DNA from: Cyanophora paradoxa CCMP329
Taxonomy: Eukaryota; Plantae; Glaucophyta
Direction: 5' to 3'
DNA length: 64,000 nucleotides
Assembly: GCA_004431415.1 (NCBI GenBank)
Contig: QPMI01000511.1
Span: 62,406 to 126,405, forward strand
The translations under genes and the position numbers were made by a program. Numbering within the stretch: position 1 is the first letter of the stretch; the number at the start of each line of letters is the position of its first letter. Positions 22,945 to 64,000 of the stretch are shown one piece after another. The notes under the pieces were generated by a model. It saw only the letters and a program-made list of their open reading frames with translations, was not told the DNA's origin and did no database searches.

Positions 22945-23381
22945 CCCGCCCGCCTCTCCCGGAACTTCGGAAGCCGCGATCGCGATTAACTGGCCTGGAG
23001 CACCGGCAGGTGCCGGGCTATTTTCCGAATTTTTCAACGTTAACCCAACGATACGGTCTAGCTATAAGAATTAATCGGGGGAGGGGACCCGGAAACTCAC
23101 GGCCGCAGGTCGGTTCTGGAAATCAATCGGTCTGGATGCTTGGATCCAGGGCCCAACCCCCCCTCGTTTTCCGTTGCTAGGTAGGGCGCGGGGGAGAGAA
23201 GCTTTTTCATCAATGGGTGCGGGGCGGCACGCTGGAGGGGCGTGCGCTCTGTTCTGCCTTGGGCGCACCCGGTCGGGGGCGGGGAAACCGTCATGCCCCC
23301 GATCCCTTTCTCTTTCCGCTGGGACGAACAGGCGGAGGGGCCGTTCGTTTCCACCGTTTTTACGGCCCCACATTCCTATGT

Positions 23382-23962
23382 GCCGGCCGGGCGGTACAGC
23401 GTACCTCCGGCTATCATCCATCATTGCTCAATTATTGTAGACGTATAGTATGCTTCTTGAGTGCGCGCCAAGAGGGCCGACCAGCCCCGGCCGGGAAACA
23501 TGCAGTGAGGGAACGGTCACCCCGTTTCTTCCCTCCTGCCCCGTGCCGGAAAAAAGATCTGGTCGCTTTTCCCTCCTGGCCGCGCAGCGGCACACCGGGG
23601 CGATGAGATACTCGCCCCGGGGGCTCGCCTATGCTGAGCCTGATCACGAGGCGTCGTCCTCTCTTTTCTCCCCCGCGCCATTCCCGTGGATCGTGCACGT
23701 GCGCGCACGCGCGCCGTGACGTCGATCCCGTGAGTGAAAGCGATAGGCGCAAATGTTATTGTGTCAACCAATGAGGCCGCACGAGTGAGCGCCCGGCGGC
23801 GCTGGCGCAAGCCAGCGCTCGGCAATGACAAGCCGGAGTTCGCCAAGTAATACGTAATATTAGCGCTCGCTCGTGGCGGCCGACGCGGCCGTGGTTAGAT
23901 ATACGGCAGTGCCCTAAGGGAGGCAGCGCGTGAGCCCGGCAGCTGGCGCACAGAAGGAGAGA
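23382..23962 (+). repeat. Split direct repeat B2 (3' terminus of the element)
   Basis: Same as 22215-22795. Confidence 0.95.
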
Positions 23963-37000: not shown

Positions 37001-38424
37001 GCTCTGCTTCTTGAGCGCTGCTGTAAGCTGAGTTGCGAACACCTGAATTCGAAAGAGATCTTGTCAATGCAAGAAAACACAACACTAGTGCTAGTGCTAG
37101 AAGCTTAAGTATCCGGTTCGCCTGAAATCTGTTCTTGCGCAGTTTATGGTGCTCAGCAGCAATGGCGTTCGCTTTGGGCAAATTGATCGAATTCAACTCA
37201 AGCTTCCTCTTGTACTTCAAATGGTAATCCGCGTTCAGCCTGAAAGGAAAATACCGCGTCACGCATGCAAGTAAACGTAAACATGTTCGAGCATCGATAT
37301 CCAAAGAGTGCGCACAAAAATGTGGCTTTCAAGCCGTTTGGCTTTGTGAGGAAGCGGTTGAGAAGGCCCCCGGGAGCGAACAGCGTCATCCAGAAATCTT
37401 GCGGGATCGGCTGCATATAAATGCATCAATATATAGTGCAATGTTAGTATATCGAGTGTAATGTTTTACCAGTAAGCCAACAAGCAGGAAGATGTGCAAG
37501 TGCTCAAAAGTTTCTGCAAAGAGTTTCCGGATGACAGCCGAGCGATAGGAGTCTGAGATCGCAAATCTGTTCGAATTCGCGTAGGGCGTATGCATGTAAT
37601 TAAATATGATCATGAACCGGTATCAAAGCATAGGCTTCGTACCCAGGAACATCAACGAGAACGAGGCCTGCGAAAAATTCCAAAATCAGGATTTTCAACG
37701 CTGACTAGCTATAGCGCGGTTCTTGAATAATTGCGTTCGCGGGCCCCGCCTGTGGACCCACCTGACTCGAGCAGCGGGCAGGGGAGGAAGACGTCGACCT
37801 CGTCGAGGATGCTCCACTGGAGGAAGCGGCTGGGGCTTTCATCATCGTCGCCGTAGCTCGCCGCGTCGCCGGCGGTCGTCGCGAGCAGCAGGCGGTGGAG
37901 GAGGGCGAGGGCGGCGGGGAGGGGGCCCGGGAAGACGATCTGCCGGTGGAGGCCCAGGAACTGCAGGTGATCCCGCGGCAGTCTGAGCTGATCCGGGTCC
38001 ATCTGCATGATGAGCTCCGCGTTTTCGATAAGGCTCATGTTGCAGAGGTGACATGCTTCGTCCAGCGTTTCCCGGTCAACCTGCACGTGGGATCACAAGA
38101 GCATTAATATTGCCGCGAGCTATTTTGCATCAGCCGACAGCTGCTAGATATGCACACCTCCTTACTGCTGCTTTCACGGCACCCCACCAGCTCCGCGCGT
38201 GCCTTCTTGAGCCTTTCGTACACGTGGGAGGCACTTTTGTACTTGAAGACTACAGCAGCCTGCTTGCCATGCTTGATTCGTGTAACGACGGATGTTGTGA
38301 CTTGCGGCATCGCCGGCAACAGTAGGTCTCCGTTAGTTTGCTCCTGACTGGTTCATATATAAGTGGGCTCTTGCCAAAGGTCGAGCTCTCGAGCTTGCCC
38401 CTTCGCTGTCAATGCATTGTTAAC
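34053..38424 (-). pseudogene. Multi-exon dynamin-superfamily (Dynamin_N, SLIP-GC/bacterial dynamin-like) GTPase gene, 5'-truncated
   Basis: NNALTAK...LLLPAMPQVTTSVVTRIKHG (post-G1 and G2), VDVFLPCPLLES|GLVLVDVPG (G3), long helical C-terminal region. No GxxxxGKS upstream of NNAL. Confidence 0.62.
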
Positions 38425-38602
38425 CCTCGGAGGTTGCATGAGTCACGCGTCACGGAGGTTTGGGTGTTATATTGCGATCAGGGACGCGCTGCACTAACAG
38501 GGGGGCTAGCACTAACTGGCGCGGGGAGTAACACGTCCGACGTACCCCTCGGGGCCTCCGGCCTCTAACTATGCTCAGGCTCTAACTGAATGCTGTACCC
38601 CC

Positions 38603-39969: not shown

Positions 39970-40012
39970 TTGCAATTGCACACATCGAGAAATTCTAAAC
40001 GCTACTGCAACG

Positions 40013-40648
40013 ATGGACCTACAACAGGGGAGCGCGGCGTGGCACGCTGCGCGCCGCGAAAAGCTAACCGCCTCGAACTTTGCCGCCGCGTGCGGCATCA
40101 ACCCGTGGAAATCCAGGGCCCGCCTCTGGGCGGAGCTGAGCGGGATCGCGGAGGAAAACAACTTTGACAACCCTGCCCTAACCTATGGGCATGACTATGA
40201 GCCCCTCGCGGTCTCTATCTACAAGGCACTGAACGATAACGTGGACATTCAACACACTGGACTGCACGAACACAAAGAAATGCCGTTCCTCGCCGGGAGC
40301 CCCGACGGACTGATAGGAAATGATAGGATTTTAGAGGTGAAATGCCCGTACAAGGGCGAACTTTATGATAGAGTTCCTACCTATTACATGCCTCAACTTC
40401 AGGGACTTCTGGACATCACGGGCCGCGAGTGGGCCGAACTTTTTTGCTTCACTCCTCTGCGCGTGCAAACGTGGTACGTCAGGCGCGACGAGAGGTACAT
40501 CGAGCTCATCAGGAAGTGCTTACATCTATTTTGGATGCACGTCAAGGAGGGTACGCCGCCCGAGCCCTACAGCGATCGAATGAAGTCAGAGAACCTCAGC
40601 GAGGAGCAGGCGGCGCTGCGCGAGTTTAAGTCGTACGCCCTCCTCTAG
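40013..40648 (+). CDS. YqaJ-like viral recombinase / lambda-exonuclease (PD-(D/E)XK)
   Basis: QGSAAWHAARREKLTAS, YGHDYEPLA, FLAGSPDGLI, LEVKCPY, YYMPQLQG. Confidence 0.93.
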   Translation: MDLQQGSAAWHAARREKLTASNFAAACGINPWKSRARLWAELSGIAEENNFDNPALTYGHDYEPLAVSIYKALNDNVDIQHTGLHEHKEMPFLAGSPDGLIGNDRILEVKCPYKGELYDRVPTYYMPQLQGLLDITGREWAELFCFTPLRVQTWYVRRDERYIELIRKCLHLFWMHVKEGTPPEPYSDRMKSENLSEEQAALREFKSYALL

Positions 40649-43711: not shown

Positions 43712-44016
43712 CGCGAGTGTTACTGCCCGCGATGTCTCAACGGATTCCGTTCAACGTCGTACCCCCGCTGGCTTGTTCCCTCCCCCAACTCGCAAAGACT
43801 CAGACTTGAAGCGCGCTCCCCCCCCCCCTCAAAATGCGTACCCCCCTTGGGCTCGAACCCCGGTCGGTTTCTCGCTTTTTTGACTGCCCAGTCCGGCGAT
43901 GCAATGCAGGCCGCTCGTTCAAATCGGCTGGGAACTTGGCGCCAGAACCTTCGCAGCGCGCGCAGCACTCCCAGCAGAGCGCGCGCAGCAGCGGCGGCAG
44001 CATCGGCGGCAGCAGC

Positions 44017-47000
44017 ATGTCTCGGCTCGCGCTCCCTCCGGAGATCCCGGCTAAGCTGGCGAGGAACACGCTGTACGACGTTCTCTGCGTCGGCGACAGC
44101 TTCGGCGTCGATTGGACGGTTTTCGAGGCCGGCATCAGCGACCAGGCAAAGGAGGCGCAGGCCCGGGCGCTGGAGGACGGCGTGCAGTTCAGCCCGAACA
44201 GCAAGGATGTGCTGCGCAAGACCGAGCTGGCCGAGCGCAAGCGCAAGCTGGCCGCGGCGCGGACCTTGAACCTCGAGGGCGCCCCCGGCCCGTCGGTGCA
44301 GTTCTCCATCGACTCCGTCCTGTCGCGGCTGCGGCTCGCGGAGGTGCTCGCTGCCTCTTTCTCTCTGCGCTCGCAGCGGCTGAGGCGCCGCGGCGCATCG
44401 CAGGACGCGGACGTGCGGGCGATGCACGCGGCGCTGAACATGACGGAGGAGAACTTCGACACGCCGAGCAAGCCGAAGCCCGGGCGCGATGCCGACGCCC
44501 GCCGGCTGTTCGCGGCGCAGCGCCTGCGGCTGCTCATGGGCGCCGTGCCCCGGCACCTCGCCAAGGGCGAGTGGCGTACGATTGGCCTGCTGGCGGGCCC
44601 GGAGGAGTTCTACTTCAACCGCATGGCGGAGGCGGCCCCGCACCTGCTCTGGCTGCTGGTGCTCAGCTCGGACCCGGCCTACACGCCCGAGGTGCGCCCC
44701 CGGCCCGCGCCGCCCGGCCGCCCCTCCCCGCCGACCCCCGCCGGCCCGCAGAGGCTGGCGAAGGGCATCATGGGCGTCGAGGCGCGCTGCATCATGCGGA
44801 ACAGCCGCGCGTTCATCACGCGCCACGAGAGCTCGGCGGTCTGGGGCGAGCGGCCGGACACCGGAGTCCTCACCGACGCCTACGCCATCCGCATCGTGCT
44901 GGAGGCGGCCTGCCGGACGTGCCGGGACCGCCACGGGCGCCAGGGCATCTGCGCCTTCGACCTGGTTCCTGAGTTCGAGGTGCCCGGCGTCACCATCGGC
45001 GACCGCGTGCAGGTGCGCCGTTTCTATTTGGATGCTATTTAGATGCTATTTAGACTATTTAGATGCCATTTAAACCCCCTCGCAGGTCATCCGCCGGTGC
45101 TCGATGCCGGACTCGCACGGGCGGCCCATGATCCACGGCGCCGTGAAGTTCATCACTGAATTCGCACACACCGAGACAGTACAGCTAGTGATGTAACTGG
45201 GGTGTCTGACTGTGTCATGTCGAAAGGTAACAATTTAGGCTAAGGCGCAATGCTAGCCATCAGAAACCGGACAGGGTGGAGCTATTGTACTGAGGAAAGC
45301 GACCTACACACACCTAGCAACGCTACTTACTCCTACCTAGAGAGCCAAATCAGGACAGAGCAACCATAACCCCCCCTCAAGACGTGGGAGCCTACAGGAG
45401 AGAACCCAGGTATAAGCAAGGATATGGGGTTGGAGCCGCGCAGCCTGAACTATAGCCCTCCATCTGATAGGGAAGATGCGCACTAAGGGAGCAAAACCAG
45501 CTAACCCCAGGGAGGGCCGGAAACCGGAGCCCGTGAGAGCCCGGGTGAAAACCGGCGGGCGCACAGCATCGCCGGCCGAAGCCGGCGACCTGTGCTCCTC
45601 GGCCGAGAGATACCTCCTCCAGCTGGCGCGCGTGCGCACGCGGAATCCGCTGCGGCGGGGGTTGGGAGGCCCCGGGCCGCCCGAGTGCTCAGAAGCACGT
45701 CGCCTCGCCAGGAATCCAAGCATCTGTGCGGCAGCGACGCCCACGGCCGCGACGCGGGCGTGCACTCACACGACCGACGATCATCTGCGCGGGCGCAGCA
45801 CAGGTCGCCGGCCCCATAGCCGCGGGCGGCCGATCGTTGCCGCAGAGAAGTGCTTGGGCTGAACGAGAGAGCAGCTGCTGAAGCCGCCGCTGGTGTCCGC
45901 TGGAGTGGCTCGCCGAACCGACCCACGGAGCGGATTCCTAACGGACGCGCGGCTAACCGGCTAGAGGAGGGGTGGAGGCACCGCCAAGGTGATTCGCGGC
46001 AGCCGGAGAGGCGCCCAGCGGGCAGGAGCCCGCCACCTACTTTCTCTCCAGGTCGGGGTACGCGAATCTGCGGCGCCGTGAAGTACGTGGTGCCGCGGCG
46101 CACCCTCGCCCTCACCTTCTTCGTCCCCGTCTTCGACAAGGCGGCCGCCGCCGCCGCCGCCGCCGCCTCCCGCCCCCGCCCCATGCTCGCGGCCGCGGAG
46201 TCCTCGGATTCCGACTCGGATTCCGAGGCGGAGCGCGAGGCCGAGGCCGCCGCCGCGGCCCGGGCGCTGGACTTCACGGAGGAGGAGCTGGAGCGGGCGC
46301 GGAGCCTGCCGCGCGCCGGCCAGGCGATGGCGGCGGCCTTCCAGGCGGCGATCGGCGAGGCGACGGCCTCCGCCTCGGGCGCCCGGGCCGGCGGCAGCAA
46401 GATCACGGCGGAGGGCCTCGCGCGCGCCATGCGCGTGGCCCAGGCCCAGGCCCAGGCGAAGGGCAAGGGCAAGGGCAAGGCCGCCTACATCGACCTGCGG
46501 TTCGAGGAGGAGGAGGCGGGTGCCCCGGCGGCGCGGCGCGATCTCGGCGAGGAGATGGAGGCGGCGGCCCCCCAGCCGACCGGTGCGCCCTCCCCGCCCC
46601 TAATTTCTGAGCCTAGGGCGTTCCAGAGGCGCCAAGGAATGACCCTGCCCTCAGAGGAGGAGCTGGAGGCCGAGCGCGCGATGGAGGAGGAGGCCGCGCT
46701 GGCGGCGGCGGCGGACGCGAAGGCCTCGCGCGAGCTGGAGGTGGCGGAGGAGTACGCGATGGAGCTGGAGCGCGAGCGCGAGCGCGAGGGCGAGCCCGAT
46801 GCGGAGCTGGCGGCGACGGTGGAGGCGGGGGCGGGGGACACCTTCGAGCCCGAGCCCCCCGTCGACGAGTTCTACCCCCTCCCGCCCTCCCCCTCCCTCG
46901 ACGGCGCCCCGCCGCCGCCCATCGAGGAGTTCTCGGACGACGAGCCCGGCGACGCCGGCCCCAGGCCGCCCTCGTCTCCCCCGCCGCCCGCCCGCCCCCG

Positions 47001-50000
47001 TGCCCCCCGCCAGCCCCGCCGCCTCCGACGTCTCCTGGCGCCCGAGCGGCAACCCCTCGGCCTTCAGTCCCTTCCGCCCTCGCAGCCCTCGCAGCGCCCG
47101 CCGCCCTCCGTCCAGGGTACCCCCTCGCCCGCCCCATCCCCTCGCCGCCGCGGGGCACGCCCGTCGCCACGCCCGCCTCCTCCCTCGGCCACATGCCCCT
47201 CCGCCCCTCCGGCCCCCGCGCCGGCCGCCTCTCCCGCCGGGCCCAGCAGCGGCGCGAGCGCGAGCGGCAGCTGCTGCGCGATCAGCGGGCGGAGGCGGAG
47301 GCGGACCACGACGACGGCCAGGCGTCGGAGAGCGACGGCGAGCCGCCGCGCGCCACCAGGCTGGAGCTGGCGCGGGCGGAGCTGGCGGCGCAGCCGCGCG
47401 AGGCGCCCGAGATCGACATGTCCAAGTACGACGACGTGACAACGTACAGCAAGGACAACAAGTCCAAGAAGGAGGCGGCCATTCAGGATGCGCTCCGCCT
47501 CTTCGTCAAGAACAACGTGCGCCCCGCCCCCTTAGCTGCGCGCCCCGCCCCTTAGAGGCCGGAGGCGGCCGTGGCCCAGCTGCTTAAGGCGCTGGGCCCG
47601 AGCCGCCTTCGGCCGGTGCGCCCCCCTCCCGCGTTCGAACCCCGCTAACCCCCTTTTGCCGGCGCAGCGGATCGTGCGCCAGAGACCCTACGGCCCGAAC
47701 TCCCCGCCCACCTTCTACGTCGAGCTCCCGAACCTCTTCGTGTACGACAAGGTCAGCGCGAACAGGCACGCCGGGCGCGGGACGATGAAGGAGGTCATCC
47801 AGCTGCTGGCGATGACCTTCCACAAGACCTACGAGTCCAACCCGGCTCCTTCGAGTTCACCTTCTCGAAGGAGGTGCTCTCGGGGCGGACGCGCACGTTC
47901 GTGGAGGAGTCCCTCCAGCTCGAGGACGTCTGCCCGAGATGCCCGTCATCCCCGGCTTCGCCTTCGCCTGCGACACGCGTGCGCCGCCCGTACCCCTGCG
48001 CCCCGCCCGTACCCCCGCCGACGCCCCTTGCGCAGATTTCGTGGTGCGGGCGCCGCAGGACAGCACGGGCAGCGCCTGCGTCCTCGTCATGACGCACGAG
48101 GAGGCACGGGAGCGGTACGCGGGCTACATGAACACCTGCTACATCCAGGGGCGCCTGCCCGCGGGCATCGAGGAGGCGACCGAGACCTGCGACTGGCCCA
48201 CCGTGTACGGCATGCTGCACCCCTTCATGCCCAACGTCGTCAAGCACCTGGCGGACAACGGCTACGTGACGGCCGACGAGTTCGGCTACGCGGCGGCCGT
48301 CCTCTACGCCTTCAACCTCGTCGGGCCGTGGAACTTCTGCGACAAGCCCGTCTTCGACCGGGAGCCGCGCGCGGAGATGGAGCCGCCGTCCGAGGGCGCC
48401 ATGCTGCAGTACTGCGGCATCATCAAGGGCCAGTCGGGCACGGGTGCGCCCCGCCCCCGCCATTCCCTCTTCCTTTTCCTGAGACCCCGCGTGCGCAGGC
48501 AAGTCGATGGTGACGCAGATCATGACGGAGTGCCTGCCGCCAAGCCGCGTCTGCGTCTACCGCCCCTCCAAGGGCTCGGCCTTCTCGGAGCACGGCGGCG
48601 AGGAGGCGATCTGCATGGTGATGGCGGAGGGCCTCGACCCGCGGGCCTGCTCGGAGGAGGAGCTCAAGATGCGCTCCGGCGACGCCTACTCCCGCAACTT
48701 CAAGAACGTCCGCGGCGACGATGTGCGCACCAAGGCGACGCGCAAGGTGCTTGTCATCGTCTGCAACAGCTTCCCGCAGGTGCGCCCGTTCCCTTCCCTC
48801 CTTCTCCCGGCGCCCTTTCTCACCTGCCCCGGCGCAGCTCGAGAACCGCATGCTCGAGTTCTTCGCCCGCGTCGTCCTCATCCCCCTCGACCACAAGCCG
48901 GCCAAGAAGCGCACCTACCTCCACTCCGACATCCGCGAGAACGAGCTGCCGGCGCTCATGGTCGCGGCCTTCACCTTCGCCTGGAAGATCATCCACGCGC
49001 TCTCCGACGGCAAGGCCTCCTGCATCCAGGCCTTCGAGCCGGCGTGGCTGCGGGCGCAGCGCCTCGGCTTCTGGCAGGAGACGACCAAGTGCCCCCTCAC
49101 CCGCTTCATCGTCACCCACTGCGCCGTCGACCCCACCACCTACGTCGCCGCCCCGAACACGGAGGGCTGGATGACGAGCGTCGCGGGCATCGTCGAGTAC
49201 ATCGCGCGCACGGAGGGCCCCGACACCTCCGCCGCCGTCGGCGCCGACATCGAGAACGGCCGGCTGGACGAGACCCTCGCCGGCTTCGGCTCCTCGTGCC
49301 GCCTCTACTCCTACAAGCTCGGCGGCATCTGGCAGACCTACATCCGCGGCATCGTCCCCAAGGCCCCGCTCTCCCTCGGCGAGAGCCAGCCGGCGCTGGA
49401 GGCGATCGCGATCCCCGTCGCCCAGTTCAAGGACCCGGTGGCCGACGTCGGGCCCTTCCTCGTCCAGCCCCACACCAAGGGCAAGGGCAAGCGCACCCGC
49501 AACTCGGCGCCGGCCTTCCTCCCGCCCCAGCCCCCCGCCACGGCCCCCCAGCAGCGCCCCGGCCAGCAGCGCATCGACGAGATGCTGCCGCGCCAGGTCC
49601 GGCCCCGCGTACCCCCCGCCTTCCCTCCCGTACCCCCCCTCCCCCCGCCCCCCTCCTGATCCAAGGGCAGGGTACCCCGACGAACGGCGGCGCGGGCCCG
49701 AGCGGCTACGGGAGCTCGGCCTCCTCCGCGAGCGCCGACGGCCCCAGCCCCGTCCCCGGCCCCAGCGCCGTCCTCTCCGCGATCCAGGGCTTCGGGGCCC
49801 AGCAGGAGGCGGAGCGGCAGGCGCTGGCGGCGCGCCAGGCGCGCGAGGCGGAGGAGCGGCGCCAGGGCCTCTGGGCCCGGCGCATGCAGGAGACCGCCGC
49901 CTTCCGCGCCGAGCTGGAGGCGGGCTTCCGCGCGAAGCGGATGAGCGCGGCGGAGGCCGTGGAGAGCTGGCGGGCGTTCGAGGACGGGACCGTGGAGCTG

Positions 50001-51027: not shown

Positions 51028-51353
51028 ATGAGCTGGCTCGATGCGCTGCTCACGAAGACCTTCGGCCCAAGGGCCAGCCGCGCCTGCAGTTCGGCGAGAT
51101 CAACGCGGCGATCGGCGCCACGGTGGAGACGAAGAACCGAGAGAACGTCCTGCGCGGCGACGGAGGCGCGTGGGCCGACATTGCGGCGGGCGCCCTGGGC
51201 TCCGCGCTCACCGCACCGGGCAAGGCGGGCCGCGCGCTGACGGACGGGGCCGAGCGCTTCTGGCACTGGCTCAAGGTGGCCGTTGTCATCGCCGCAGCGG
51301 TTGTGGCGGGTCTCCTGGTGCTCGAGGCTCGCGCGCTATTTTCTAAACGCTAG
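51028..51353 (+). CDS. Small viral membrane protein (frameshift near 5' end)
   Basis: MSWLDALLTKTFG ... FWHWLKVAVVIAAAVVAGLLVL. Confidence 0.55.
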
Positions 51354-51369
51354 GTAAACTGAGCGAACC

Positions 51370-51774: not shown

Positions 51775-52058
51775 TTACCAGTTCCTGTTCCTATCCCAGA
51801 GCACGACTCGGGTGAAGGGCACGGTCATAGCGAACATGAACTCGGCGAACTTTGCAAAGTTCATCAGGGTTCCAGGCGGGGATCCTCCCAGTAGATCGCC
51901 TCGCGCAGCGCCTCGTAGACGCGCATGAGGGAGCGCTCGTTCTCCGTCGCGAAGGCGTCGCCGGGCTCGTCGGGGTCGGGATCCGTGAGCTCGGAGTACT
52001 CGTCCGAGCTGCCCGCGCTCTCGGCACCTGCGGCGGGGTCGGGCGAGGGGTCGGGCAT
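51775..52058 (-). CDS. Small acidic viral hypothetical protein (frameshifted)
   Basis: MPDPSP...EAIYWEDP joins TLMNFAKFAEFMF... Confidence 0.5.
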
Positions 52059-52106
52059 TCTTTGCTGGTAGAAGGGCTAGAAGAGGGACCAGAAAATCAC
52101 TAGCAA

Positions 52107-52458: not shown

Positions 52459-52752
52459 TTAGAAAAGGTTCCGGACCAGGCCCGAGAGCTGCGGGCCCAG
52501 GCGCCGGGCGGCGTAGTAGAGCGCGGCCGCCGCCGCCGCAAGGATGAGCAGGCGCGGCGGGCCGCGCGCCGGCTCCTCCAGCGTCAGGTCCACGGTCTCC
52601 GGCCCGCGCGCCGGAGCCGCCAGGATCTCGGGCTCGGAGCAGAGGGACTTGGGCCCGCGGCGGCGGCGCTGCTTGGGCGCCGAGGCGGCGGCGGCGGCGG
52701 TGAGAAGGTCCTCAGGCTCCTGCTTGATACCTGCGCAGTCAGTAAAGTCCAT
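52459..52752 (-). CDS. Small viral protein with a C-terminal TM
   Basis: MDFTDCAGIKQEPED...LLILAAAAAALYYAARR. Confidence 0.55.
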   Translation of the reverse strand: MDFTDCAGIKQEPEDLLTAAAAASAPKQRRRRGPKSLCSEPEILAAPARGPETVDLTLEEPARGPPRLLILAAAAAALYYAARRLGPQLSGLVRNLF

Positions 52753-52804: not shown

Positions 52805-54340
52805 AGGAGGGGGGAGAAGTGACGCGGACGCAAAAGATTCCGTCATGGGTTTTTCCGTCATGGGCTGGAACTTGGACTCGGGACTCGGCCGGGAATTCTC
52901 CTGGTAAGTTCGAGACTTGAACTCGGCGGGGTAACCCCTATGTCCTAGTGTCCTAGTGTCCCAGAGTCCTAGTGTCCTAGTGTCCTAGTGTCCTAGAGTC
53001 CTAGTAGTACTAAGTAGGTGGTATCGATATCTAGCTAGCTAGCGCTAGCGCTTGCTTAATTAATTAACTGAAAGGTTGCGGAGGTTGCGGACGCGTCACA
53101 ATTCCGTCATGGGTTTTCCGTCATGGGCTGGAACTTGGACTCGGGACTCGGCCGGGAATTCTCCTGGTAAGTTCGAGACTTGAACAAGAACGACGTACCC
53201 CTCCTATGACCGTTCTATACTACATTAAAGTATTCATTGATTGTGAATAACGATAATGTCATAGCAACTTCAGTATGATGTCATAGCAACTTGAAATTAC
53301 CTTCAAGTCGAATAGAGGGGTACAGAGTCGGTACGTTAGACTTGACAAAACACGTGTATTTTTTTACGCCGAGTTTTGCGGCCGAGTCCCGAGTCCAAGT
53401 TCCAGCCATGACGGAAAACCCATGACGGAATTGTGACGCGTCCGCAACCTCCGCAACCTTTCAGGTAAATGTCAGGTAACTTCAGGTTAATTAATTAAGC
53501 AAGCGCTAGCAAGCACTAGCTAGATATCACAGCTCTACCTTGCCCAAGTTGATGGTATCTAGCAAGGCCTGCTCCTCCAAGTCTGCACCACCGCCGCTCC
53601 AGCGCTAGCGCTAGCTCGATACCGCCTCCGGCTTGATCTCCCTTGGCTCCAGCCACCTGAGAGGCTCAGGCCACCTCCTCTGGTGAAGCCGGTATCGTTG
53701 CTCTTGTCCAGCTTGAGGTAGCGGTAGGGCGCCGGCGCCGGCCAGTCCGGCCTGTGGCCGCTTGCCTCCTTGGCTATGTCCTTGGGCCTACGCGGACGCA
53801 GGTCGGCCTTGGCCTTCGCCCTCTGCAGGGGGCCCAGCGCCTTGAACTTCGGTGCCTTGGTCGCCGGCAGGGCCTTGGGCTGGGGCTTCTGGGGCTTCTG
53901 CGTCTTCACCGCCTTGGGCTTCGGCATCCTTGGCTGCTTCGATTTCGGCATACTTCTTGCTCATAAATGAGAAAAGCGCCTCAAAGTCTGCCTTTATCTC
54001 CTCCTTGGACCAGGATGTCACCTGATCCGGGTCACCTGAGAACGGCGCATCGAACGCCACGTGGAGCGATTTGCAGGCCTGGGCAATCATTGGCTCGGGC
54101 CATGCCAGCTCGATCAGCTGAAGGTAGATGTTGAGGGCCTTGTCGAGCTTGGCGCCCTGGGAGACCAGCTGGGAGATGGCGGGCTCCATGGTGGGTAGAC
54201 TAGCATCAGAAATGGCGCCAAGTTCGAATCTATTTTTTTACCGGGAGAGTTTGGCCCGAGTCCCAGGTCCAAGTTCCAGCCCATGACGGAAAAACCCATG
54301 ACGGAATCTTTCGCGTCCGCGTCACTTCTCCCCCCCTCCT
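52805..54340. repeat. Nested inverted/direct repeat hub with TTCCGTCATGG iterons
   Basis: Outer IR 52805-52889 / ~54253-54340. Inner IR 53026-53154 / 53379-53528. Direct repeat 52837-52922 / 53101-53185. (GTCCTAGT)n at 52941-53005. Confidence 0.92.
53559..54189 (-). CDS. Viral hypothetical protein inside the repeat hub; C-terminus acidic (stop 53788) or K-rich (stop 53559) depending on frame
   Basis: Overlapping ORFs 53788-54189 and 53559-53951. Confidence 0.5.
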
Positions 54341-54445
54341 CAGGTGAGCGCTCACCTGAACCTCACCTGAACGGCCTCTATAAGCACGCGGCACGCGGCG
54401 TTCCCCTCACACTCTCAATCTCTCTCAACGCAACCAGCAAGCAAC

Positions 54446-54915
54446 ATGGCCCTTGTTGCCCAGTTCTTCGTCGAGGAATACACCGTGCGCGTGATCGGCG
54501 AGCCCATTGACCGCGAGGTGGAAGTTCTCAAGGACGGCAAAGTAGACGACTGCAAGACTGCCCGGTAAGATCCTCCTCATGAAGCTCTCCGACGATGGCT
54601 TCTCCTTCACCCTGGTCTCCTGCGCCAAGACCCAAACCGGACAGACGGCCTACATCGTGACCTTCTCCGCGGGGCGCCTGAACTGCACGCATGTTCAAGT
54701 ACCCGAGTGGGCCTCGTTCTGCGCGGCGATCTCTCCCTCAGGCCGCTCCCTCGCCTACACATTCTTTGAGGGTATCAGTGCAACATCTGGGTCTTGCGGA
54801 GGCAGATGGGCTCCCCCAGATGAAGGTCGATCAGCTGCACCAGCAGTGCGGCTACCCCTTTAGCCTTGACGATAGGATGATTTCCTTTGATCTTGATGGC
54901 TCTGTATCCCTCTGA
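54446..54915 (+). CDS. Viral hypothetical protein (frameshifted)
   Basis: MALVAQFFVEEYTVRVIG... chains to ...LMKLSDDGFSFTLVS... and ...ISFDLDGSVSL*. Confidence 0.5.
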
Positions 54916-55023
54916 AATTGAACGCGTGTTTTCTGACTTCGTCTGAAGCTCACCTGACGCGGGGCCTTAAGAGGGGGCACGGGGCCTCGGTTCCTCACAC
55001 TTTAACCGTAAGCCAACGAGAGA

Positions 55024-55395
55024 ATGTGCGCCCCCAAGTACTTCACCTGCTGCCTGACCTTCGGCATCTTCGAGTACGAGGCCATGGAAGAGGATCTGGA
55101 CGAGAACGGCGAGATCTGCTTCAACTACTGCAGGCTGCTGCGCAACATCTCGCTGGAGTGCCGCAAGGGCGACTGCTTCCAGCACATCATGCTCAATCCC
55201 GCCAAGAACGAGATCACCCTGTACGCCGTCGCCTGCCCCAGCGCCAGATTTAGACTCTCGAATATTCGCGTAGCCGCGATCGAAGCCCTTCCCCCCCCAG
55301 TGAGACGAATTGAACACGTGTTTTACCTGAATCACCTGAGCGCTCAGCTGAAGTCAGGTGGGGCGCCCTTTAAATATTTTCTAGCGCTAGGCTGA
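55024..55395 (+). CDS. Small Cys-rich viral hypothetical protein
   Basis: MCAPKYFTCCLTFG..., GC3-rich codons in the first ~80 aa; 3' end uncertain. Confidence 0.55.
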   Translation: MCAPKYFTCCLTFGIFEYEAMEEDLDENGEICFNYCRLLRNISLECRKGDCFQHIMLNPAKNEITLYAVACPSARFRLSNIRVAAIEALPPPVRRIEHVFYLNHLSAQLKSGGAPFKYFLALG

Positions 55396-55417: not shown

Positions 55418-56213
55418 ATGGCCACCGTCCGCAACGCCAACGAGATCGACCCGCCAAGCTCGCCTTCGAGATCGACGCCACCGCCGCATCAAGGCCAAGT
55501 ACGACGGCCTGCAGGGCCTCATGATGTACGCGCCGCCCATGGTCACCATCAACCCTGCATCAACACAGAGCAAGGCAAGGCGTGGAGCGACGAGAAGAAG
55601 GCCTTCGTCATGGAAGAAAACGGCGGATTCTACACGCTGGACCTCACCGATCTCAGCGCCGTCGACGGCCAGACGAACCCGCCGCGGACGAGTTCCTCAA
55701 GCTGCTCGAGGCCCTGGACGCGAAATTCTGCGAGTTCGTGCAGCAGAACCAGGCCAAGCTCAAGGTCTCGCCCGGCCGCTCCCTCTCCAAGGACCAGATC
55801 TCGGTGCTGCAGACCCCCAGCGTGCGCATCAAGGTCGACAAGGAGTCGGGCCAGGCCTTCTACAAGTACCTCAACATGCGCATCCGCACCCAGACGATGG
55901 CGGGCAAGCGCAAGACCATCCCCGTCGTCGACATGTCCAACTACCTCATCACCGAGCGCGCCACCATCGCACCGGCGACCTGGTGGCCGCCCTCGTCAAA
56001 ATCGACACCGCCTACGCCATCCCCGAGGGCAAGTTCGGCCTCAAGTGGTCCTTCCTCGCCGTGCAGCAGTGCAAGGTCGGCGCCTTTCGCTTCGCAGGCC
56101 GCACGCCCGAGCTGGCCTTCAGGCCCTACGACAACGAGGCCAGCTTCGAGCCCTACCTAAACCCGAGTCTATGTACACAGCCCCATGCAGTAGCTCGGAC
56201 GAATAAATTGTGA
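55418..56213 (+). CDS. gp2.5-like OB-fold single-stranded DNA-binding protein (NCLDV/mriyavirus type), frameshifted
   Basis: FYTLDL, DEFLKLLEALDAKFCEFV, YLNMRIR, GDLVAALVKIDTAY..GKFGLKWSFLAVQ. Confidence 0.7.
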
Positions 56214-56246: not shown

Positions 56247-57038
56247 TCAAAGGCCGTTGAACTTGCCGCCCACCGCCTTGGGCTCCGCCGCCGTCGAGGC
56301 CGCCGCCTCCGTCACCTCCTTCATTACCTCCGGGTTCGCGTTCGCCGCGTGCACCGCCAGCACCGTCTGCACAAGGGCCATCCCCAGGCGCGCCTCGGGC
56401 CCCAGGGTCACGTAGCGCGAGTACTTGATCACCAGCTCCTCCAAAATCGGCTGCACCTGGTCCATCGAAGAGAGCGTCGCCTGCCCGAGCCCGTCGAGCT
56501 TCAGGCCGATCGGATCGTACGCCTTGTTCAGGTGCTCCAGCGAGTGCATGCCCGCGATCAGAAAGAGGCGCGCCGCCTCCAGCGAACCCCGCGTGCTCAG
56601 CTCGCGCTGAATCTCCTCGTACTCTTCCTTCAGCTCGTCCAGCGGCGTCGCCAGGCTCAGCTTCTTCGTGGACGTAAGCTCGCCCCGAACGAGCGCCGGT
56701 ACTGCGCGATCTGCCGCAGAACCTGCTTCTTCTCGTCCACGTCACCTGCGCCTCGTCCGCGGCCGCTCCTGCAGGTCGATTCCAGCGCCTTTTTCACGCT
56801 CTGCTCCTTTTTCTTCGTCATTTCGATGTGCTCCTGCACGCTGAAGCTCGCGCCCTTGCTCGGCGCCGTCGGCGGCACGCGGGCCCGTCGCCCGGCAGCG
56901 CCATCCTGTCGCCTTCGGCGCCTTCTCCCCTTTTCCTTGCCCTCCTTCGCGGGGCGGCCTTCTTCCGGGCTGCGGGATTCCACGGGGTTCGGCCCGTCCA
57001 CGGCCAGCGCCTCGAAGCCAAGCATCGCGAGGGTCCAT
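56247..57038 (-). CDS. DUF5767-like conserved NCLDV protein (frameshifted)
   Basis: LEHLNKAYDPIGLKLDGLG...ILEELVIKY...GPEARLGMAL...VHAAN resembles the family motif DPFxxKLDGW...EELYEKY...PExxL. Confidence 0.65.
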
Positions 57039-57054: not shown

Positions 57055-58512
57055 TTAGAAATATTTTTACTCGAGTCAGCTCAACGAAGAGCTCGACGTA
57101 CAGCCACAGCTTCTCGCGCAGCTCCGGCCCGCTGCCGTAGAGAGCGAGCGCACGGCCGAGGCGTACTCCTGCGGCAGCCTCTCGAAACCGAGTCGTCCTT
57201 CGCCTTGATTAATTCCGCCTCCGCGTTGATGTGCTCCTGAACAGAACGATGACCGCCGTGGCCCCTATGCCGCGCAGCGACTGGATCTGCGCCCGCACCC
57301 CGTGCTCCTTGGCCTCCGGCTCCAGAGGTCGAGGAAGCGGCCCCAGCGCGCCTCGATCTGCTCGCCCAGCGTCGCCTCCGTCGCTGCCATGTGCTCGCGT
57401 GGGCCTCAGAAATTACTGACGGGTCGGAGGGCCCGGCTGCTAGGTCGTACATCTCCGCCTTCCGGGCGTTCGTTTCCGCGAGCATGGTAATCTGACTGTT
57501 CTCCGTGTTCCGGACGAGGGCCTGGAAGGCTGTCTGAATTGCAGTCTGCGATGCTTCGACATACCGGCCACCGTCCCTTTGCACGGAGCGCTTCCATGCG
57601 TCCTTTCTCGAACGGCGTGGCAAGCTGGTTGCTCTGCAGCGCAGGGAGCGGGTTGACGACGCGGGGCAGCAGTTCTGGTCCGCGTAAGGCGTGGCCGTGG
57701 GCAGGGCCGGGCCGCGCGTCCCGGCTGATCGAGGAGCATGCCCCGAACGGATTGCCCCGGCTGAAGTCCACGTCGTTGCGCCCGTAGGGCTTGTTGACGG
57801 CGCTGCTGATGTTGGCCGTCTGCGCGTTGAACATGGCGAGAGGTCGGGGTGTAGCCGCGCGCAGCCCTGCGGGTTCGCAGCCGTCTGCCCGTAGCGACCG
57901 GCCGGCCCGAGCAGGTTCTCCTTCTCGATCTCTTCCATCGTCTGATCCAGCCGCGCTCGCGCGCCCACTTCATGACGAGATCGTCGTAGTTCATCGGAAG
58001 AAAACCTTCTGGTATTTATCGAAGCGCTGAATTTCGATATCCTGCTCGATCATGTTCGTAATTCGCTCCAGCAGCTCGGGTATATTCCTCGAGCATTTGG
58101 CGACGCCCGGCTGCTTCAGGTCGAAGGCCGTCATCGCCCACTGGTCGAAATCGCGAATCATGATTTCCTTCCGCAGCTGAACGCGTTCTCCACATCCTCC
58201 TCGTTGATCGTGCGGCCGGTTCGCGTTCTGCAGCTGCTGTCGGATGCCATGCGCATCAGCTTCTCCATCGAGGGCGTGTACTTCATCGCGGGCAGGGTCT
58301 TCGTTTCCCCCCGCTGAGCCCAGGCCGCGCCTTATCCTCGGGCGTGTAGATGTCCGCCTTCGTCCCATCTACGACGGGCACCTCGGGCATAATCGTGCCC
58401 GGAAGGAACTTGTTCACGATGCGTCCATGTCGGCCTTCAGGTCGTTCTTCAGCGACTGGCGCTGCTTCTTAGAGCCCTCCCCAATGTCCATCATAGAGTG
58501 GCCCTTCGTCAT
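57055..58512 (-). CDS. Viral hypothetical (probably structural) protein, multiple frameshifts
   Basis: Chained fragments: MTKGHSMMDIG..., IRDFDQWAMTAFDLKQPG, PELLERITNMIEQD, MFNAQTANISSAVNKPYG. Confidence 0.55.
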
Positions 58513-58589: not shown

Positions 58590-59938
58590 CTAATGGAAGC
58601 GGCGGTAGGCGCCGCCGTTGGTGAAGGTGATCTCGTTGTAGTAGCGGCAGTAGATGTCGGCCACGGGCTTGTCCGTGCCGTAGGTCTTGAGCGTGGTGAG
58701 CGTGAGCTCGATGGTCTTGAAGGCGCCATGTCGAGGCCGCCGAACATCTTGGTGTTGTCGGCCACGTCGTGCCGAAGGGAGCGAGTAGATGAACTCCGTC
58801 CCGAACTGGCCCACGTTGCGGGGCTGGATGTCGCTGCTGTGCCGTCGTGGGTCGCAAGGGTCGTGGGGCCGTGTCGTTGCCCGACCACGGGTGCGGGTGC
58901 AGCGCGTCGGCCACGTCGGCCGCTGCCGTCCCGTCCATCGAGGTCACGCCCGCAGCAGCTCGAGGTGCTTGCGGGCGGGGCGTGCGTGTGCTCCTTGTGC
59001 GCGATGGCCGTGCGCAAAAAGTGCGCGTCGTGGTTCGAGCTATCGAGCACCTTGATGTTGTCGCACTTCAGCTCGATCTTGTCGAGCGGGCGGAAGCGCA
59101 GAAGTGCTCGCCGTTGTCGGTGTGCGGCTTGTCGCGCACCACGATGATCAGCTCGTAGCAGATTCCGGTGAAGGGCAGGCGGATGGCCTTGCGACTCGAA
59201 CGAGACGTGGTAGTGCTGCACGTACTTGCCGCCACGTGAACGAGTTCGGGTGCAGCGCCAGCTCGCGCGAGTCGATGTGCACGTAGCGCAGGATGAGCTT
59301 GGTGTCCAGGCTGACGGTGCTCGTCAGGTTGGTGTTGGTGTGCAGGCCGCCGTCCACGTACGAGGCCGTGATCTCCTTCTGCGAGGCGTACGTGATCTGC
59401 AGCTTCATGTCGTTTCCGGAGCAGCGGAGCTTGTGGAGCGGCACGGCGAACTTTCGACCGTGGCCGTCGCGATGCGAATCGGTATGTACAGCGTGTTCGA
59501 GCCTTGCCCCGGCGGCGCAGCGCTGGTGCGCCCAGAGGTTGTTCACCATGTCGACGTGCTGGACGACGGACTTGTCGTCCTCGAACTCGCGTAGATGGCG
59601 TCGTAATGGCCGTCGTACTCGTGGATCAGCTGGCGCCACGAGATCTTCACCTTCTTGGCAGCACGTAGCCGGCCTTCGGGATGTAGAAGTGGTCCGCGTT
59701 CGTCAGCGCCGGCAGCGTCACCTTGAGCCAGGAGTCGTTGAACATCGGCGCCGAGTGCGGGATGACGATGTCGACGGTCTGGCGAAGCTCACGCCCGACT
59801 GCACGGGGCTCACTCGAGCACCTCGTCGACGAACGGCATCGCCGTGTCGAGGTCTCGTGCACGTGCACCGACGCATCGGAGCTGCGCAGCGAGTGGTGCA
59901 GGGCGGTTCGTGGGGGTGGAGATGAGCGCGGAAGCCAT
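58590..59938 (-). CDS. Major capsid protein, NCLDV-type double jelly-roll (frameshifted)
   Basis: ~450 codons. TVDIVIPHSAPMFNDSWLKVTLPAL; AVPLHKL..NDMKLQITY; DKIELKCDNIKV; C-terminal MFGGLDM..FKTIELTL...DIYCRYYNEITFTNGGAYRRFH parallels the NCLDV G..NFSR...VYAxNYNxLRIxxG end. Confidence 0.8.
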
Positions 59939-59984
59939 GGTGGTTTAGGGGTGCGTTGAGAAAATTTTTTGGGTGGGCCTACGT

Positions 59985-61908
59985 TATTAGAGGGCGCGTC
60001 CCCCGTCTCGCAGGTCCGCGTCGTACGCCTCTGCGGAGTGCGTCGTGATGCAGACCGTCGCGTGTGCGTTAAGATACCCAGGCAATCCTTGGCCCAACAT
60101 GAAGTAACGCTCTGGATCCAAGTTCATGAGTTGCTGGGCCGCTCCTTACGCGCCGCACACGCTCATAAAGGGTGCCCTTTGCCGCAGAATCCGAGCGGGT
60201 CGCTTCTCGCTCAGCTTCGAAGAATTTCACGACATCCCGCCAGGTCCGAAATATCACGGTGCTGCTCTGCTATCGTGCCTGTGCCTGTTGATCCAGCTGC
60301 CTGGCATGGGCTATCGATGCCAGTGGTTGAATCGATTTCTTCTGCAAGGTATTTCGCGCACGGCGGCGTCCCCTGCAGCGCGCGCGATTTCGGCGATACG
60401 CTCACAAGAATCCCTCCCGGCGAGCCGATTGCCGGCGCTCCGCTCCGCTCCTCGTCATGGGATGTCTGGACTGGCTGGAATTGCCTGGAGCCCGGAGCGA
60501 ATTTCTTCAGCAGCCCCCACGGCGAGCTTCTGTCGCCTCTTTCACCTTCTTGGCGGCCAGTTCAAGCGCATCGTTTACGTCCATGGTCGTATACCCGGGT
60601 CTCCGCCCATATCCTTGTACGCGGCCCTGCGCTTGTCCATGGCTTCCATCTCGCGCGGGGACGAGGGGGCGATTTCTATCCCCGCGTTTGCGAGTTGAGC
60701 CTGGACGGCGACGGGCACTGCTCGAGCACGGCCCTTGCCGGCAACGGCCACCGCCTCGGCCGCCACCACCTCTGGCGGGCGCGAGGGCCCCGCCTGCGGC
60801 TCGGGTGGCGGCGGGGGCGGCGGGGGGGTGGCGGGGGCTGCTGCTCCGCTGGGGGCGCCGACGGCCGGGCCACCGTGTCCGGGGGCTGCGAGGGGCCGGG
60901 CTGCGGCTGCAGCGGTGGCGTCTTCGGCCCGGGGGGCGGAGGCGGCGGAGGCGGAGGCCCCGGAGGCGGGGCCCCCCCTTCGTCGTCGGAGTCTGACTCG
61001 ATCATTTCGTCTCTGGGTTCCTTGGATGGCAGGGCCTTCTGAATGAGGGCCTCGCGCGCGCCCTTGCCCGCCTTGATTGCTCTGCCCATGGCCGCCTCCG
61101 GGAAACTGGCCTCGATGGCCTCGTTGTCCCCGTCCGTGATGCGCACCTTCTGCTCGCGGCGGGCCTTGATGTACTTTTCCTTGTCCATCCGCTTCTTCGC
61201 CCGCCTCTCCCTGGGCACGTCGCGCTGGCGGCTCTCGTCCGGCCCCGGCCCCTCGCTGTCCGAGCTCGAGGGCGGCTCGGCCTGGGCGAAGGGCTGGCGC
61301 GTGTTGCGGTTCGCGTAGTCGGGGTCGTACTTCCCTCCGATCAGCTCCTCGGGCTTCTTGTTCTCGCGCGCGTAGATGCTCGTGGGCTTGAACTCCTCGC
61401 CGTTGATGATGTACTTGTAGTAGTAGTACGCGTCCTCGAGGTTCATCGGCCCCAGCGTCTCGAGGCGCTTCTTGCGCTTCAGGAATTCGGTGATCTGATC
61501 CTCCTTCGACTTGCAGAACTCCCGCACGCCCGGCAGCACCGTCAGGTTCTTGCCGTCCACGTCGCAGGCGCCCGCCCCCTTGGCCTTCAGGTTCGCGGTG
61601 AAGGCCGACTGGCCCATCAGCCAGGCGCGGAAGCCCTCCTCGTACTCCTCGTCGAGGCTCGACTCCATCTGCTGGAACTTGTTGATGTAGTAGGCGTTGG
61701 CGATGGCCTGCGCCTCCACCTCGGCGAGCTTGTCCGATTGATCGCGCTCCTCGAACCGAATTTCCGGCGTGGCCCTCGCCAGCGCCGTCTTCATCAGCTG
61801 CTGAAAGTGTGCGTACTTGTCGCTCTCGAAGGGCGTGATGTGCGAGTCCCCGCCCCCCGGGATCGCGAGCACGTTGCGCGGCGCGAAACGCGAGGCGAGC
61901 CCCCTCAT
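59985..61908 (-). CDS. Large viral hypothetical protein with a Pro-rich linker (frameshifted C-terminal half)
   Basis: N-domain EEGFRAWLMG...LTVLPGVREF...GPMNLEDAYYYYKYII; the C-terminal part continues across frames to ~59985. Confidence 0.6.
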
Positions 61909-62183
61909 TTGCACTTCTTAGGAGCCGGCTTTGAAATTTTATCGGTCTTGGCCTTGTCTTCCTTCCCGTCCTTCTTCTCGGCCCCCTTCTTCCCCTGCTT
62001 CGTCGGGCGCATCGCCACGAATATTTCGCCGGGCGAGACGTCCTCGTACAGCGGCTTCGGTCCCTTAGGAAATTCGGGCGGGCCCTTCAGCTTCTCCTTC
62101 GCCTCCTTCACCTCCGCCTTGGTGGGCCGCTCCTGCCCGTTCGTGGGCGCCTTTTTCGCGGGCTTCTTCTGCGCCTCCGGCAT
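61905..62183 (-). CDS. Small Lys-rich viral protein (possible DNA-condensing core protein)
   Basis: 92 aa, very K-rich, upstream ATTTTTCTGG. Confidence 0.6.
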   Translation of the reverse strand: MPEAQKKPAKKAPTNGQERPTKAEVKEAKEKLKGPPEFPKGPKPLYEDVSPGEIFVAMRPTKQGKKGAEKKDGKEDKAKTDKISKPAPKKCK

Positions 62184-63400: not shown

Positions 63401-63597
63401 GGGATCTAGCTACGGGTGTAGACAGCCTTCAGAAAAAAGTGCGTAGTAGCGGACGGCGCACCGGGGGCAGCAGACGTAGACGCCCGCCTTGAGCACCCAG
63501 CGCGCTTGGTCTGGGGCAGGCGGCAGATTTCGCAGCAGAGGGCCTCGGCTTACGGCACGAGGATCCCATCTGGCGGGCCTCCAGAAATCGCAACGGA

Positions 63598-64000
63598 TCA
63601 CGCGGATTGAGCGCGGCGTAGAGGGCGATTAAGTAGGCGTCGCAGAGGTCGTCGAGCTTGCCGTTTCGATCCGCGATGTCGGCGAGCTCGGCGGTACGAG
63701 GTCGCGGCACTTGTCCACGCGCCCCGCTTGCGCTCCTTGTAGCTCGGGTTCGAGATCTTGAAGAAAGTGCTTGATGGCGCGCGGGCTCACGATCCGCGAC
63801 GCCCGTACAGCAGGGCGTGGAGCGTGCACTCGATGCAGCGATTGATTCCCGTCCTCTGGCCCTCGATCGCGATCTGGTCGGGAAGGCCGAAGGCGCTATG
63901 GCCGCGAGTAACCTCCACCAGGCGCGCCACAAGGCGGCCACAGCAGCGCGCAGACGGGAAGAGGGCGATCTTCTGCCAGTCGAGAATCTGGGATTCCTTT
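63598..64000 (-). CDS. Poxvirus A22/RuvC-like Holliday junction resolvase (5' end outside window, frameshifted)
   Basis: ILDWQKI, IAIEGQ, RCIECTLH, IVSPRAIK.F.ISNPSYKERK, KLDDLCDAYLIALY. Confidence 0.82.

What the first reader, a model, noticed from the sequence alone, without database searches (positions are those of the whole stretch)
52805..54340. Nested inverted-repeat/iteron hub: candidate replication origin or fused genome termini
Seen: four copies of a core ATTCCGTCATGGGTTTTCCGTCATGG(G)CTGGAACTTGGAC..GGGACTCGG, two forward then two reverse, giving 8 TTCCGTCATGG iterons. Copies 1 and 4 share one flank, 2 and 3 share another (with TTAATTAATTAA and GCTAGC palindromes), and 1 and 2 share a 3' extension. 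Weak symmetry (GTACCCCTC/GAGGGGTAC) continues into an AT-rich centre. Flanking genes read away from the hub. Inference: iterons plus an AT-rich core suit an SF3-helicase origin. Alternatively these are terminal inverted repeats of a linear genome joined end to end, implying integration of a circular or concatemeric form. The pairs could also permit inversion.
Basis: partly seen in the sequence, partly recalled or inferred. Interest (0 to 1): 0.82.

Follow-up and report, generated by a model that had tools for sequence, protein, structure and literature searches.

The report
Mirror-repeat control hub of algal provirus
A real mirror-image block of repeats with an AT-rich middle sits inside a small relative of giant viruses that likely lies in many copies in an alga's genome, and it likely serves as the virus's replication origin and two-way gene switch.

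Summary
The hub is real: four ~55-bp cores (two forward, two reverse), eight TTCCGTCATGG copies found nowhere else in the window, and an AT-rich centre that folds back imperfectly. Short-read contigs from four public runs cover its unique junctions, so it is not an assembly join. The hub lies inside a mriyavirus-like (small Nucleocytoviricota-related) element: NCLDV-type capsid, YqaJ nuclease, DUF5767, two proteins shared with free mriyaviruses, SF3-helicase and RuvC motifs by eye. Close homologues sit on 23 contigs of one genome labelled Cyanophora paradoxa. Best reading (0.45): the virus's single control region, an inverted-repeat origin whose arms also carry outward early promoters, with the provirus opened elsewhere. 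Rivals: fused hairpin ends cut by the resolvase (0.25), enhancer only (0.18), nested MITE (0.07), artefact (0.05). No replication role is shown; no HUH gene was found in the 25 kb seen. I found no description of a mriyavirus origin or end structure in the papers searched.

The parts
52805..52922 (+). Unit 1 = outer flank P (52805-52836) + core K (52837-52891, two iterons) + tail T1 (52892-52922)
52923..53025 (.). Left spacer, mostly an 8-bp tandem array (CCTAGTGT x 8.8, 52937-53005); shorter in one variant contig
   Evidence: table 5c, X1 52938-52980
53026..53185 (+). Unit 2 = flank Q (with GCTAGC and TTAATTAA palindromes) + core K (53101-53154) + tail T1
53186..53356 (.). AT-rich centre (39% GC; 32% in 53204-53312), 18-nt direct repeat at 53253/53275, imperfect branched fold-back, only perfect stem 7 bp at 53289-53308
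   Evidence: spanned by X8 contig 53156-53407 with 0 other letters, 1 gap
53357..53528 (-). Unit 3 = tail T2 + core K (53379-53431) + flank Q with three TCAGGT words
53559..53951 (-). Internal ORF, 130 aa, Lys/Pro-rich, no family
53788..54189 (-). Internal ORF, 133 aa, starts 42 nt behind tail T2 of unit 4, no family
54231..54340 (-). Unit 4 = tail T2 + core K (54253-54307) + flank P
54340..54445 (+). Likely early promoter: TCACCTGA cluster and TATA-like word at 54378 ahead of ATG 54446; same pairing ahead of ORFs 55024 and 55418
   Evidence: function inferred
52459..52752 (-). First gene left of the hub, reads away
40013..40648 (+). YqaJ/PDDEXK nuclease
   Evidence: Pfam PF09588 E 2.8e-28; tblastn E 2e-8 with a gene of free-virus locus L015
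47650..49659 (+). Likely SF3 helicase gene with frameshifts and GT-AG introns; Walker A split by an intron at 48444-48498
   Evidence: motifs read by eye; no HMM hit
55418..56213 (+). Possible ssDNA-binding protein gene (frameshifted)
   Evidence: recalled resemblance only; no HMM hit
56247..56741 (-). DUF5767 protein
   Evidence: Pfam PF19071 E 1.2e-13
57950..58500 (-). Protein shared with free mriyavirus-type loci
   Evidence: 3-sequence profile from L010/L012/L015 hits P0009 at E 7e-5 and the window frame at E 0.05
58590..59938 (-). NCLDV-type major capsid protein gene (frameshifted in the window)
   Evidence: homologues P0006-P0009 73-82% identical to the fragment, Pfam Capsid_N E 1e-7
60676..61908 (-). 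Protein with an N-terminal domain shared with long proteins of free viruses
   Evidence: 34 hits; tblastn E 4e-10 with the protein of Ga0172380_10001380
63580..64000 (-). Likely RuvC/A22-like resolvase, cut by the window end
   Evidence: motifs by eye; Pox_A22 E 0.18, below cut-off

Best explanation
The hub is a two-armed inverted repeat inside a mriyavirus-like provirus and is likely the virus's single control region: a replication origin whose arms also carry outward-firing early promoters. Shown: each arm, read outward from the centre, is tail-core-flank, then a spacer, then tail-core-flank again, then a gene reading away; tails are shared within an arm and flanks across arms. Inferred: an initiator (viral helicase N-terminus, or a host bZIP-type factor at the TGACG words) would bind the paired iterons on both sides, the AT-rich fold-back centre would melt and load the SF3 helicase, and host polymerase would copy the genome; the same cores plus TCACCTGA/TATA words would drive early genes both ways. 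Tandem duplication of one unit per arm plus recombination or gene conversion between arms would give the 2x2 pattern. The provirus would have entered as a circle opened away from the hub.
For: Iterons confined to the hub; lowest GC of the viral block at the axis and better-than-chance fold-back; viral genes on both sides; TCACCTGA 7 times in the window against 0.69 expected, all between 54018 and 55339, five of them in intergenic DNA ahead of three consecutive genes; junctions present in contigs of four runs, with variant alleles on both sides of the hub; opposite-strand joints 52888/54241 (X4, X8) and 53053/53518 (X1, X8) fit arm exchange. Mriyaviruses lack DNA and RNA polymerase and are thought to use the host nucleus (10.1101/2024.02.29.582850). 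A free relative also has a repeated intergenic TGACGTCA unit (2 copies in L010; 3 further matches in that record).
Against: No replication or binding assay. The helicase and SSB calls rest on motifs by eye. The inner iterons are 279 bp apart, far wider than polyomavirus or papillomavirus core origins (recalled). No HUH gene, the proposed mriyavirus initiator, was found in the 25 kb seen (2-sequence profile, best E 3.7). The free-virus unit does not match the hub beyond chance (135 of 1000 shuffles) and is absent behind the HUH gene of L015; no comparable inverted hub in the 4 of 7 metagenome loci scanned for repeats (partial genomes). Host junctions of this and other copies were not seen.
Confidence: 0.45

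Rival explanations
1. Fused genome ends: the centre is an unfolded, mismatched hairpin telomere between two inward-pointing promoter-like cores; it extrudes as a cruciform and the RuvC/A22-like resolvase cuts it to give a hairpin-ended linear genome.
For: AT-rich imperfect fold-back between 63-nt arms 98% complementary; resolvase-like gene in the element; poxvirus junctions are an AT-rich imperfect palindrome between two promoter-like resolution sites (PMC8956199, passages); phaeovirus proviruses carry an internal linearisation site (PMC13236599, passages). Core plus T2 directly precedes an ORF in unit 4, as an inward promoter would.
Against: No perfect palindrome at the axis (53266); only a 7-bp stem at 53289-53308. 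Tails T1 and T2 between cores and centre are not complementary. No protelomerase seen. Resolvase match is below cut-off. Several Yaraviridae contigs have direct, not inverted, terminal repeats (G001), though a circle with an internal site would assemble the same way.
Confidence: 0.25
2. Transcription only: a back-to-back enhancer/promoter block for host RNA polymerase II, duplicated once per arm, with no role in replication.
For: Iterons contain TGACG (bZIP half-site, recalled); flanks carry CACCTG E-box-type words (recalled label) and TATA-like words shared with two promoters outside the hub; a joint 54378-55021 in X1, X4 and X15 puts the same promoter in front of a different gene.
Against: Does not explain the AT-rich fold-back centre, why the inner cores that head no gene stay 98-100% identical, or why the core is absent from the other two promoters.
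Confidence: 0.18
3. A ~500-bp non-autonomous element (units 2-3 as terminal inverted repeats) inserted into an outer inverted pair.
For: Inner unit has the size and symmetry of a MITE.
Against: Inner and outer units share the same core and side-specific tails, which an unrelated insertion would not give; no copy in 33 kb of host-like DNA; no target-site duplication evident; summed contig depth over the cores is within the range of flanking viral genes (weak, depth is not copy number).
Confidence: 0.07
4. Assembly artefact joining two elements or duplicating a unit.
For: The window has many 1-nt differences from the runs and frameshifts throughout; unit 1/2 identity is 99%.
Against: Contigs bridge core1-spacer-core2 (X15, 52837-53130), the centre (X8, 53156-53407), unit 3 flank-ORFs-unit 4 (X15, 53481-54336) and unit 4-right gene (X1, 54142-54507). 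No listed piece spans the whole hub.
Confidence: 0.05

Closest known systems
Mriyaviricetes (Yaraviridae, 'Gamadviridae'/NDDV)
   Same: NCLDV-type capsid, PDDEXK nuclease, likely SF3 helicase and RuvC, two proteins shared with free loci including Ga0172380_10001380, which 10.1101/2024.02.29.582850 names as a yaravirus genome
   Different: Multi-copy, intron-containing and apparently chromosomal; HUH, ATPase and VLTF2/3 not found in the 25 kb seen; no origin or end structure described in the parts read
Phaeovirus EVE internal telRL site (PMC13236599) / phage N15 telRL
   Same: Inverted repeat internal to a provirus that was opened elsewhere
   Different: No central perfect palindrome, no protelomerase or tyrosine recombinase found in the element part seen; element is far smaller
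Poxvirus concatemer junction and resolution sequence (PMC8956199)
   Same: AT-rich imperfect fold-back between two inverted promoter-like elements; A22-like gene nearby
   Different: Arms diverge after ~150 bp and tails are not complementary; the vaccinia T-run/TAAAT word is not present; head-to-tail rather than mirror-image gene content
HSV oriL, polyomavirus control region, baculovirus hr (all recalled)
   Same: Iterons in inverted pairs around an AT-rich centre between divergent early genes; origin and enhancer in one block
   Different: 279-bp inner gap, nested second pair of cores, two ORFs inside one arm; no sequence kinship tested

Membership tests
Mriyaviricetes | Double jelly-roll capsid of NCLDV type | tested here: met
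   Capsid_N E 1e-7 above cut-off in homologues 73-82% identical to the window fragment; phylogenetic placement not done; single-sequence fold useless (pLDDT 31)
Mriyaviricetes | Mriyavirus-conserved proteins | tested here: met
   E 4e-10 to a protein of a named yaravirus contig; E 7e-5 for a second protein; which Mriya number they carry was not tested
Mriyaviricetes | PDDEXK endonuclease | tested here: met
Mriyaviricetes | HUH endonuclease | tested here: inconclusive
   2-sequence profile finds none; window has frameshifts and the element runs off the right end
Mriyaviricetes | Packaging ATPase, VLTF2, VLTF3 | tested here: inconclusive
   ATPase and VLTF3 profiles find none in the window; no Pfam hit among 92 frames; rest of element unseen
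Mriyaviricetes | SF3 or SF2 helicase; RuvC-like resolvase | tested here: inconclusive
   Motifs by eye; Pox_A22 E 0.18; helicase fragment search empty
Mriyaviricetes | 35-45 kb genome without DNA or RNA polymerase | not testable with these tools
   At least 25.4 kb (38.6-64 kb) seen, no polymerase family among 92 frames; no whole genome held
telRL site (N15, phaeovirus) | Palindrome centred on the cut site | tested here: not met
telRL site (N15, phaeovirus) | Protelomerase gene; fold-back reads | not testable with these tools
   none in the part seen; only contigs available
Poxvirus-type concatemer junction | AT-rich, incompletely paired inverted repeat between two inverted resolution elements | tested here: inconclusive
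   AT-rich fold-back present, cores inverted, but tails differ and the vaccinia word is absent
Iteron origin with SF3 helicase | Inverted iteron pairs flanking an AT-rich unwinding element | tested here: met
   defining features recalled
Iteron origin with SF3 helicase | Initiator binding and origin-dependent replication | not testable with these tools
   needs bench work
MITE | Dispersed copies in host DNA with target-site duplication | tested here: inconclusive
   none in this window; genome not held

The most novel reading that the evidence does not exclude
A temperate mriyavirus of a glaucophyte alga, present as dozens of transcribed, intron-bearing proviruses, switches between a circular and a hairpin-ended linear genome by resolvase cleavage of a cruciform at this internal hub, without protelomerase or its own polymerase; the hub would be the first origin/telomere element identified for the smallest relatives of giant viruses, in a laboratory alga.
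Probability: 0.2. Interest if true: 0.82.

Novelty: new variant of a known kind. Interest (0 to 1): 0.58.

Why it matters
How mriyaviruses replicate and how they enter host genomes without an integrase is open: rolling-circle replication is inferred from a gene only (10.1101/2024.02.29.582850), and integration genes are reported absent (10.64898/2026.06.19.733378, passage). A defined cis-element in a multi-copy provirus of a culturable alga makes origin, genome-end and integration models directly testable, and adds a likely glaucophyte host. If the hub is only an enhancer block the value is modest.

Tried and rejected
No whole genome held, so copy ends and permutation were not examined. Host-versus-element depth and the left junction were not obtained from reads; the left boundary (38.4 kb or further left) stays open. 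Hub words in viral contigs: 7 single 17-mer matches without a second iteron and 2 double-iteron matches not followed: treated as chance. No relative of the capsid or DUF5767 protein in viral or metagenome contigs; none in phages. The stretch 38420-38555 is the best match to unit 2 outside the hub but 6 of 15 shuffled queries score as high: not counted. Free-virus repeat versus hub: 135 of 1000 shuffles: not counted. Rfam: one chance hit. ESM Atlas: nothing usable. AlphaFold of the capsid: pLDDT 31, no fold search run. No holder is on record as RNA; X15 is only guessed RNA. No loose end at the centre among the 24 shown of 289: not evidence. GC-skew turn at 53 kb follows gene orientation: not evidence. 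Earlier scan notes: nothing relevant.

Full report
OBSERVATION. The hub is in the sequence as described. Four ~55-bp cores (K) lie at 52837, 53101 (forward) and 53431, 54307 (reverse). TTCCGTCATGG occurs 8 times, all here; allowing one mismatch adds none; shuffles give 0.82 on average and 0 of 100 reach 8. GGAACTTGGAC occurs 4 times, once per core. Aligning the units shows a 2x2 design: unit 1 = flank P + K + tail T1, unit 2 = Q + K + T1, unit 3 = Q + K + T2, unit 4 = P + K + T2. Read outward from the centre, each arm is therefore tail-core-Q, a spacer, tail-core-P, then a gene reading away. The centre has the lowest GC of 38.6-64 kb (32%) and folds into an imperfect branched hairpin better than shuffles (171 nt: z -3.7 and -4.2, 0 of 200 each; the AT core alone is weaker on the plus strand, 7 of 200). 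Its only perfect stem is 7 bp and off-axis. The quoted GTACCCCTC pair is not informative: 7 copies in the window, 76 of 300 shuffles match its length.

IS IT REAL DNA? Of 24 runs listed, 20 hold the stretch or part of it, all under one organism code, from 15 studies. I laid 4 of them (contigs only, tables cut to the best-supported rows). Contigs bridge core 1-spacer-core 2 (X15), the centre (X8, no other letters), unit 3 flank-ORFs-unit 4 (X15) and unit 4-right gene (X1); none spans the whole hub, and some runs may be the window's own source. The runs show several sequence variants on both sides of the hub and many one-letter insertions relative to the window, which suggests that at least some of its frameshifts are assembly errors. 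Variant joints: a shorter tandem spacer (X1); 54378 joined to 55021, dropping the first right-hand gene (X1, X4, X15); and two opposite-strand joints, 52888/54241 (X4, X8) and 53053/53518 (X1, X8), in which one arm carries letters of the other. These fit inversion or gene conversion; contigs cannot tell which. X15, guessed RNA, has a joint with intron-type ends at 52024-52098 and a contig over the two internal ORFs; this shows presence, not level or strand.

WHAT SURROUNDS IT. From 38.6 kb to the window end the genes are virus-like. Of 92 frames scanned, 2 hit Pfam: YqaJ and DUF5767. A fragment at 59.2-59.7 kb finds four proteins 73-82% identical with the NCLDV capsid N-terminal domain. Their clusters come from 17 contigs of one EukProt proteome labelled Cyanophora paradoxa; homologues of a second gene add 6 more contigs, 23 in all, one of which may be the window's own. 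The host is therefore likely this glaucophyte (inference) and the element multi-copy. The second gene's N-terminal domain has 34 relatives, among them long proteins on 32-43 kb metagenome contigs. One lies on Ga0172380_10001380, named as a yaravirus genome in 10.1101/2024.02.29.582850; match E 4e-10. A profile of three proteins from such loci hits the gene behind the capsid (E 7e-5). SF3 helicase and RuvC motifs are visible by eye but have no or sub-threshold HMM support; the SSB label is recalled resemblance. HUH, ATPase and VLTF3 profiles find nothing in the window; the element runs off the right end. So it is mriyavirus-like; membership is likely but not complete.

PROMOTER SIGNALS. TCACCTGA occurs 7 times against 0.69 expected, all in 54018-55339; clusters of it with a TATA-like word precede ATGs at 54446, 55024 and 55418, and TCAGGT triplets fill the flank of unit 3. 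The iterons contain TGACG. The bZIP and E-box labels are recalled. The core itself is not found at the other promoters.

MECHANISM. I favour (0.45) a single control region: origin-type iterons facing an AT-rich fold-back centre, with arms doubling as outward early promoters for host polymerase II, kept alike by exchange between arms, in a provirus opened elsewhere. Shown: anatomy, uniqueness, AT richness, fold-back, viral genes on both sides, shared promoter words, arm-exchange joints. Inferred: binding, melting, replication, circular integration. Fused hairpin ends (0.25) have precedent in phaeovirus proviruses with an internal linearisation site (PMC13236599) and in poxvirus junctions (PMC8956199), and a resolvase-like gene is present; but there is no central palindrome, and T1 and T2 do not pair. 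Enhancer only (0.18) leaves the centre and the inner cores unexplained. MITE (0.07) and artefact (0.05) are disfavoured. The first two readings are not exclusive.

RESULTS AGAINST OR EMPTY. A free mriyavirus-type record has a repeated intergenic TGACGTCA unit (2 copies in L010; 3 more matches in the record) but its likeness to the hub is within chance and it is not behind the HUH gene of L015. No comparable inverted hub was seen in L010 or in the 4 of 7 metagenome loci scanned (all partial). A look-alike at 38.4-38.6 kb is not significant. Host junctions and copy depth were not obtained.

LITERATURE SEEN. 10.1101/2024.02.29.582850: parts 1-4 of 6 of the text; rolling-circle model from the HUH gene, direct terminal repeats in several contigs, no origin described in those parts. 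10.64898/2026.06.19.733378: passages; no mention of Cyanophora; integration genes absent in mriyaviruses. PMC10120064, 10.1101/2022.07.28.501842, PMC8502044, PMC13236599, PMC8956199: passages. PMC12344493: passages; reports methylated giant-virus-like gene clusters in C. paradoxa without describing them in the passages seen. PMC6704402: passages; the words virus and viral do not occur in the main text. Searches listed no paper describing this element or a mriyavirus origin; subscription papers are not covered, and supplements of 10.1101/2024.02.29.582850 and PMC12344493, which I did not see, may list the element.

VERDICT. Real, non-random cis-element inside a multi-copy mriyavirus-like provirus; role in replication likely but unshown. 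New variant of a known kind; interest 0.58.

Noticed in passing
window 13859-23681: Reverse transcriptase (17715-20618) and tyrosine recombinase (20561-21676) ORFs with split direct repeats (149 nt at 13859/22796; 300 nt at 22215/23382): looks like a DIRS/Ngaro-type retrotransposon (family label recalled).
   Followed up: partly
window 48444-48498, 42400-45150: Viral genes carry host-style GT-AG introns, one splitting the helicase Walker A motif (read by eye); an intron-type joint at 52024-52098 in run X15.
   Followed up: partly
window 38420-38555: Three short words of unit 2 and the centre recur in the same order at the left edge of the viral gene block; not above chance by local alignment. 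Possible relic end.
   Followed up: yes
window 54378-55021: The first gene right of the hub is skipped in contigs of three runs, so it is optional among copies.
   Followed up: no
window 35100-38400: AT-richer block (52-55% GC) with short unannotated ORFs between host-like genes and the viral block; origin unknown.
   Followed up: no
proteins P0009/P0020 and P0006/P0011: Two EukProt contigs each carry two capsid-like gene models a few gene numbers apart: tandem proviruses or split models.
   Followed up: no
L010 2827-2927: Free 40-kb virus with ATPase, HUH-motif and helicase ORFs has a two-copy TGACGTCA-containing repeat just behind the HUH gene; three more matches in the record. Could be a dispersed origin or promoter element.
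   Followed up: partly
window 59940-59975, 61909-61945, 39990-40012, 51335-51369: A/T-run words like AAATTTTC or TTTTCTAA precede many viral start codons: possible late-promoter signal; no statistics run.
   Followed up: no
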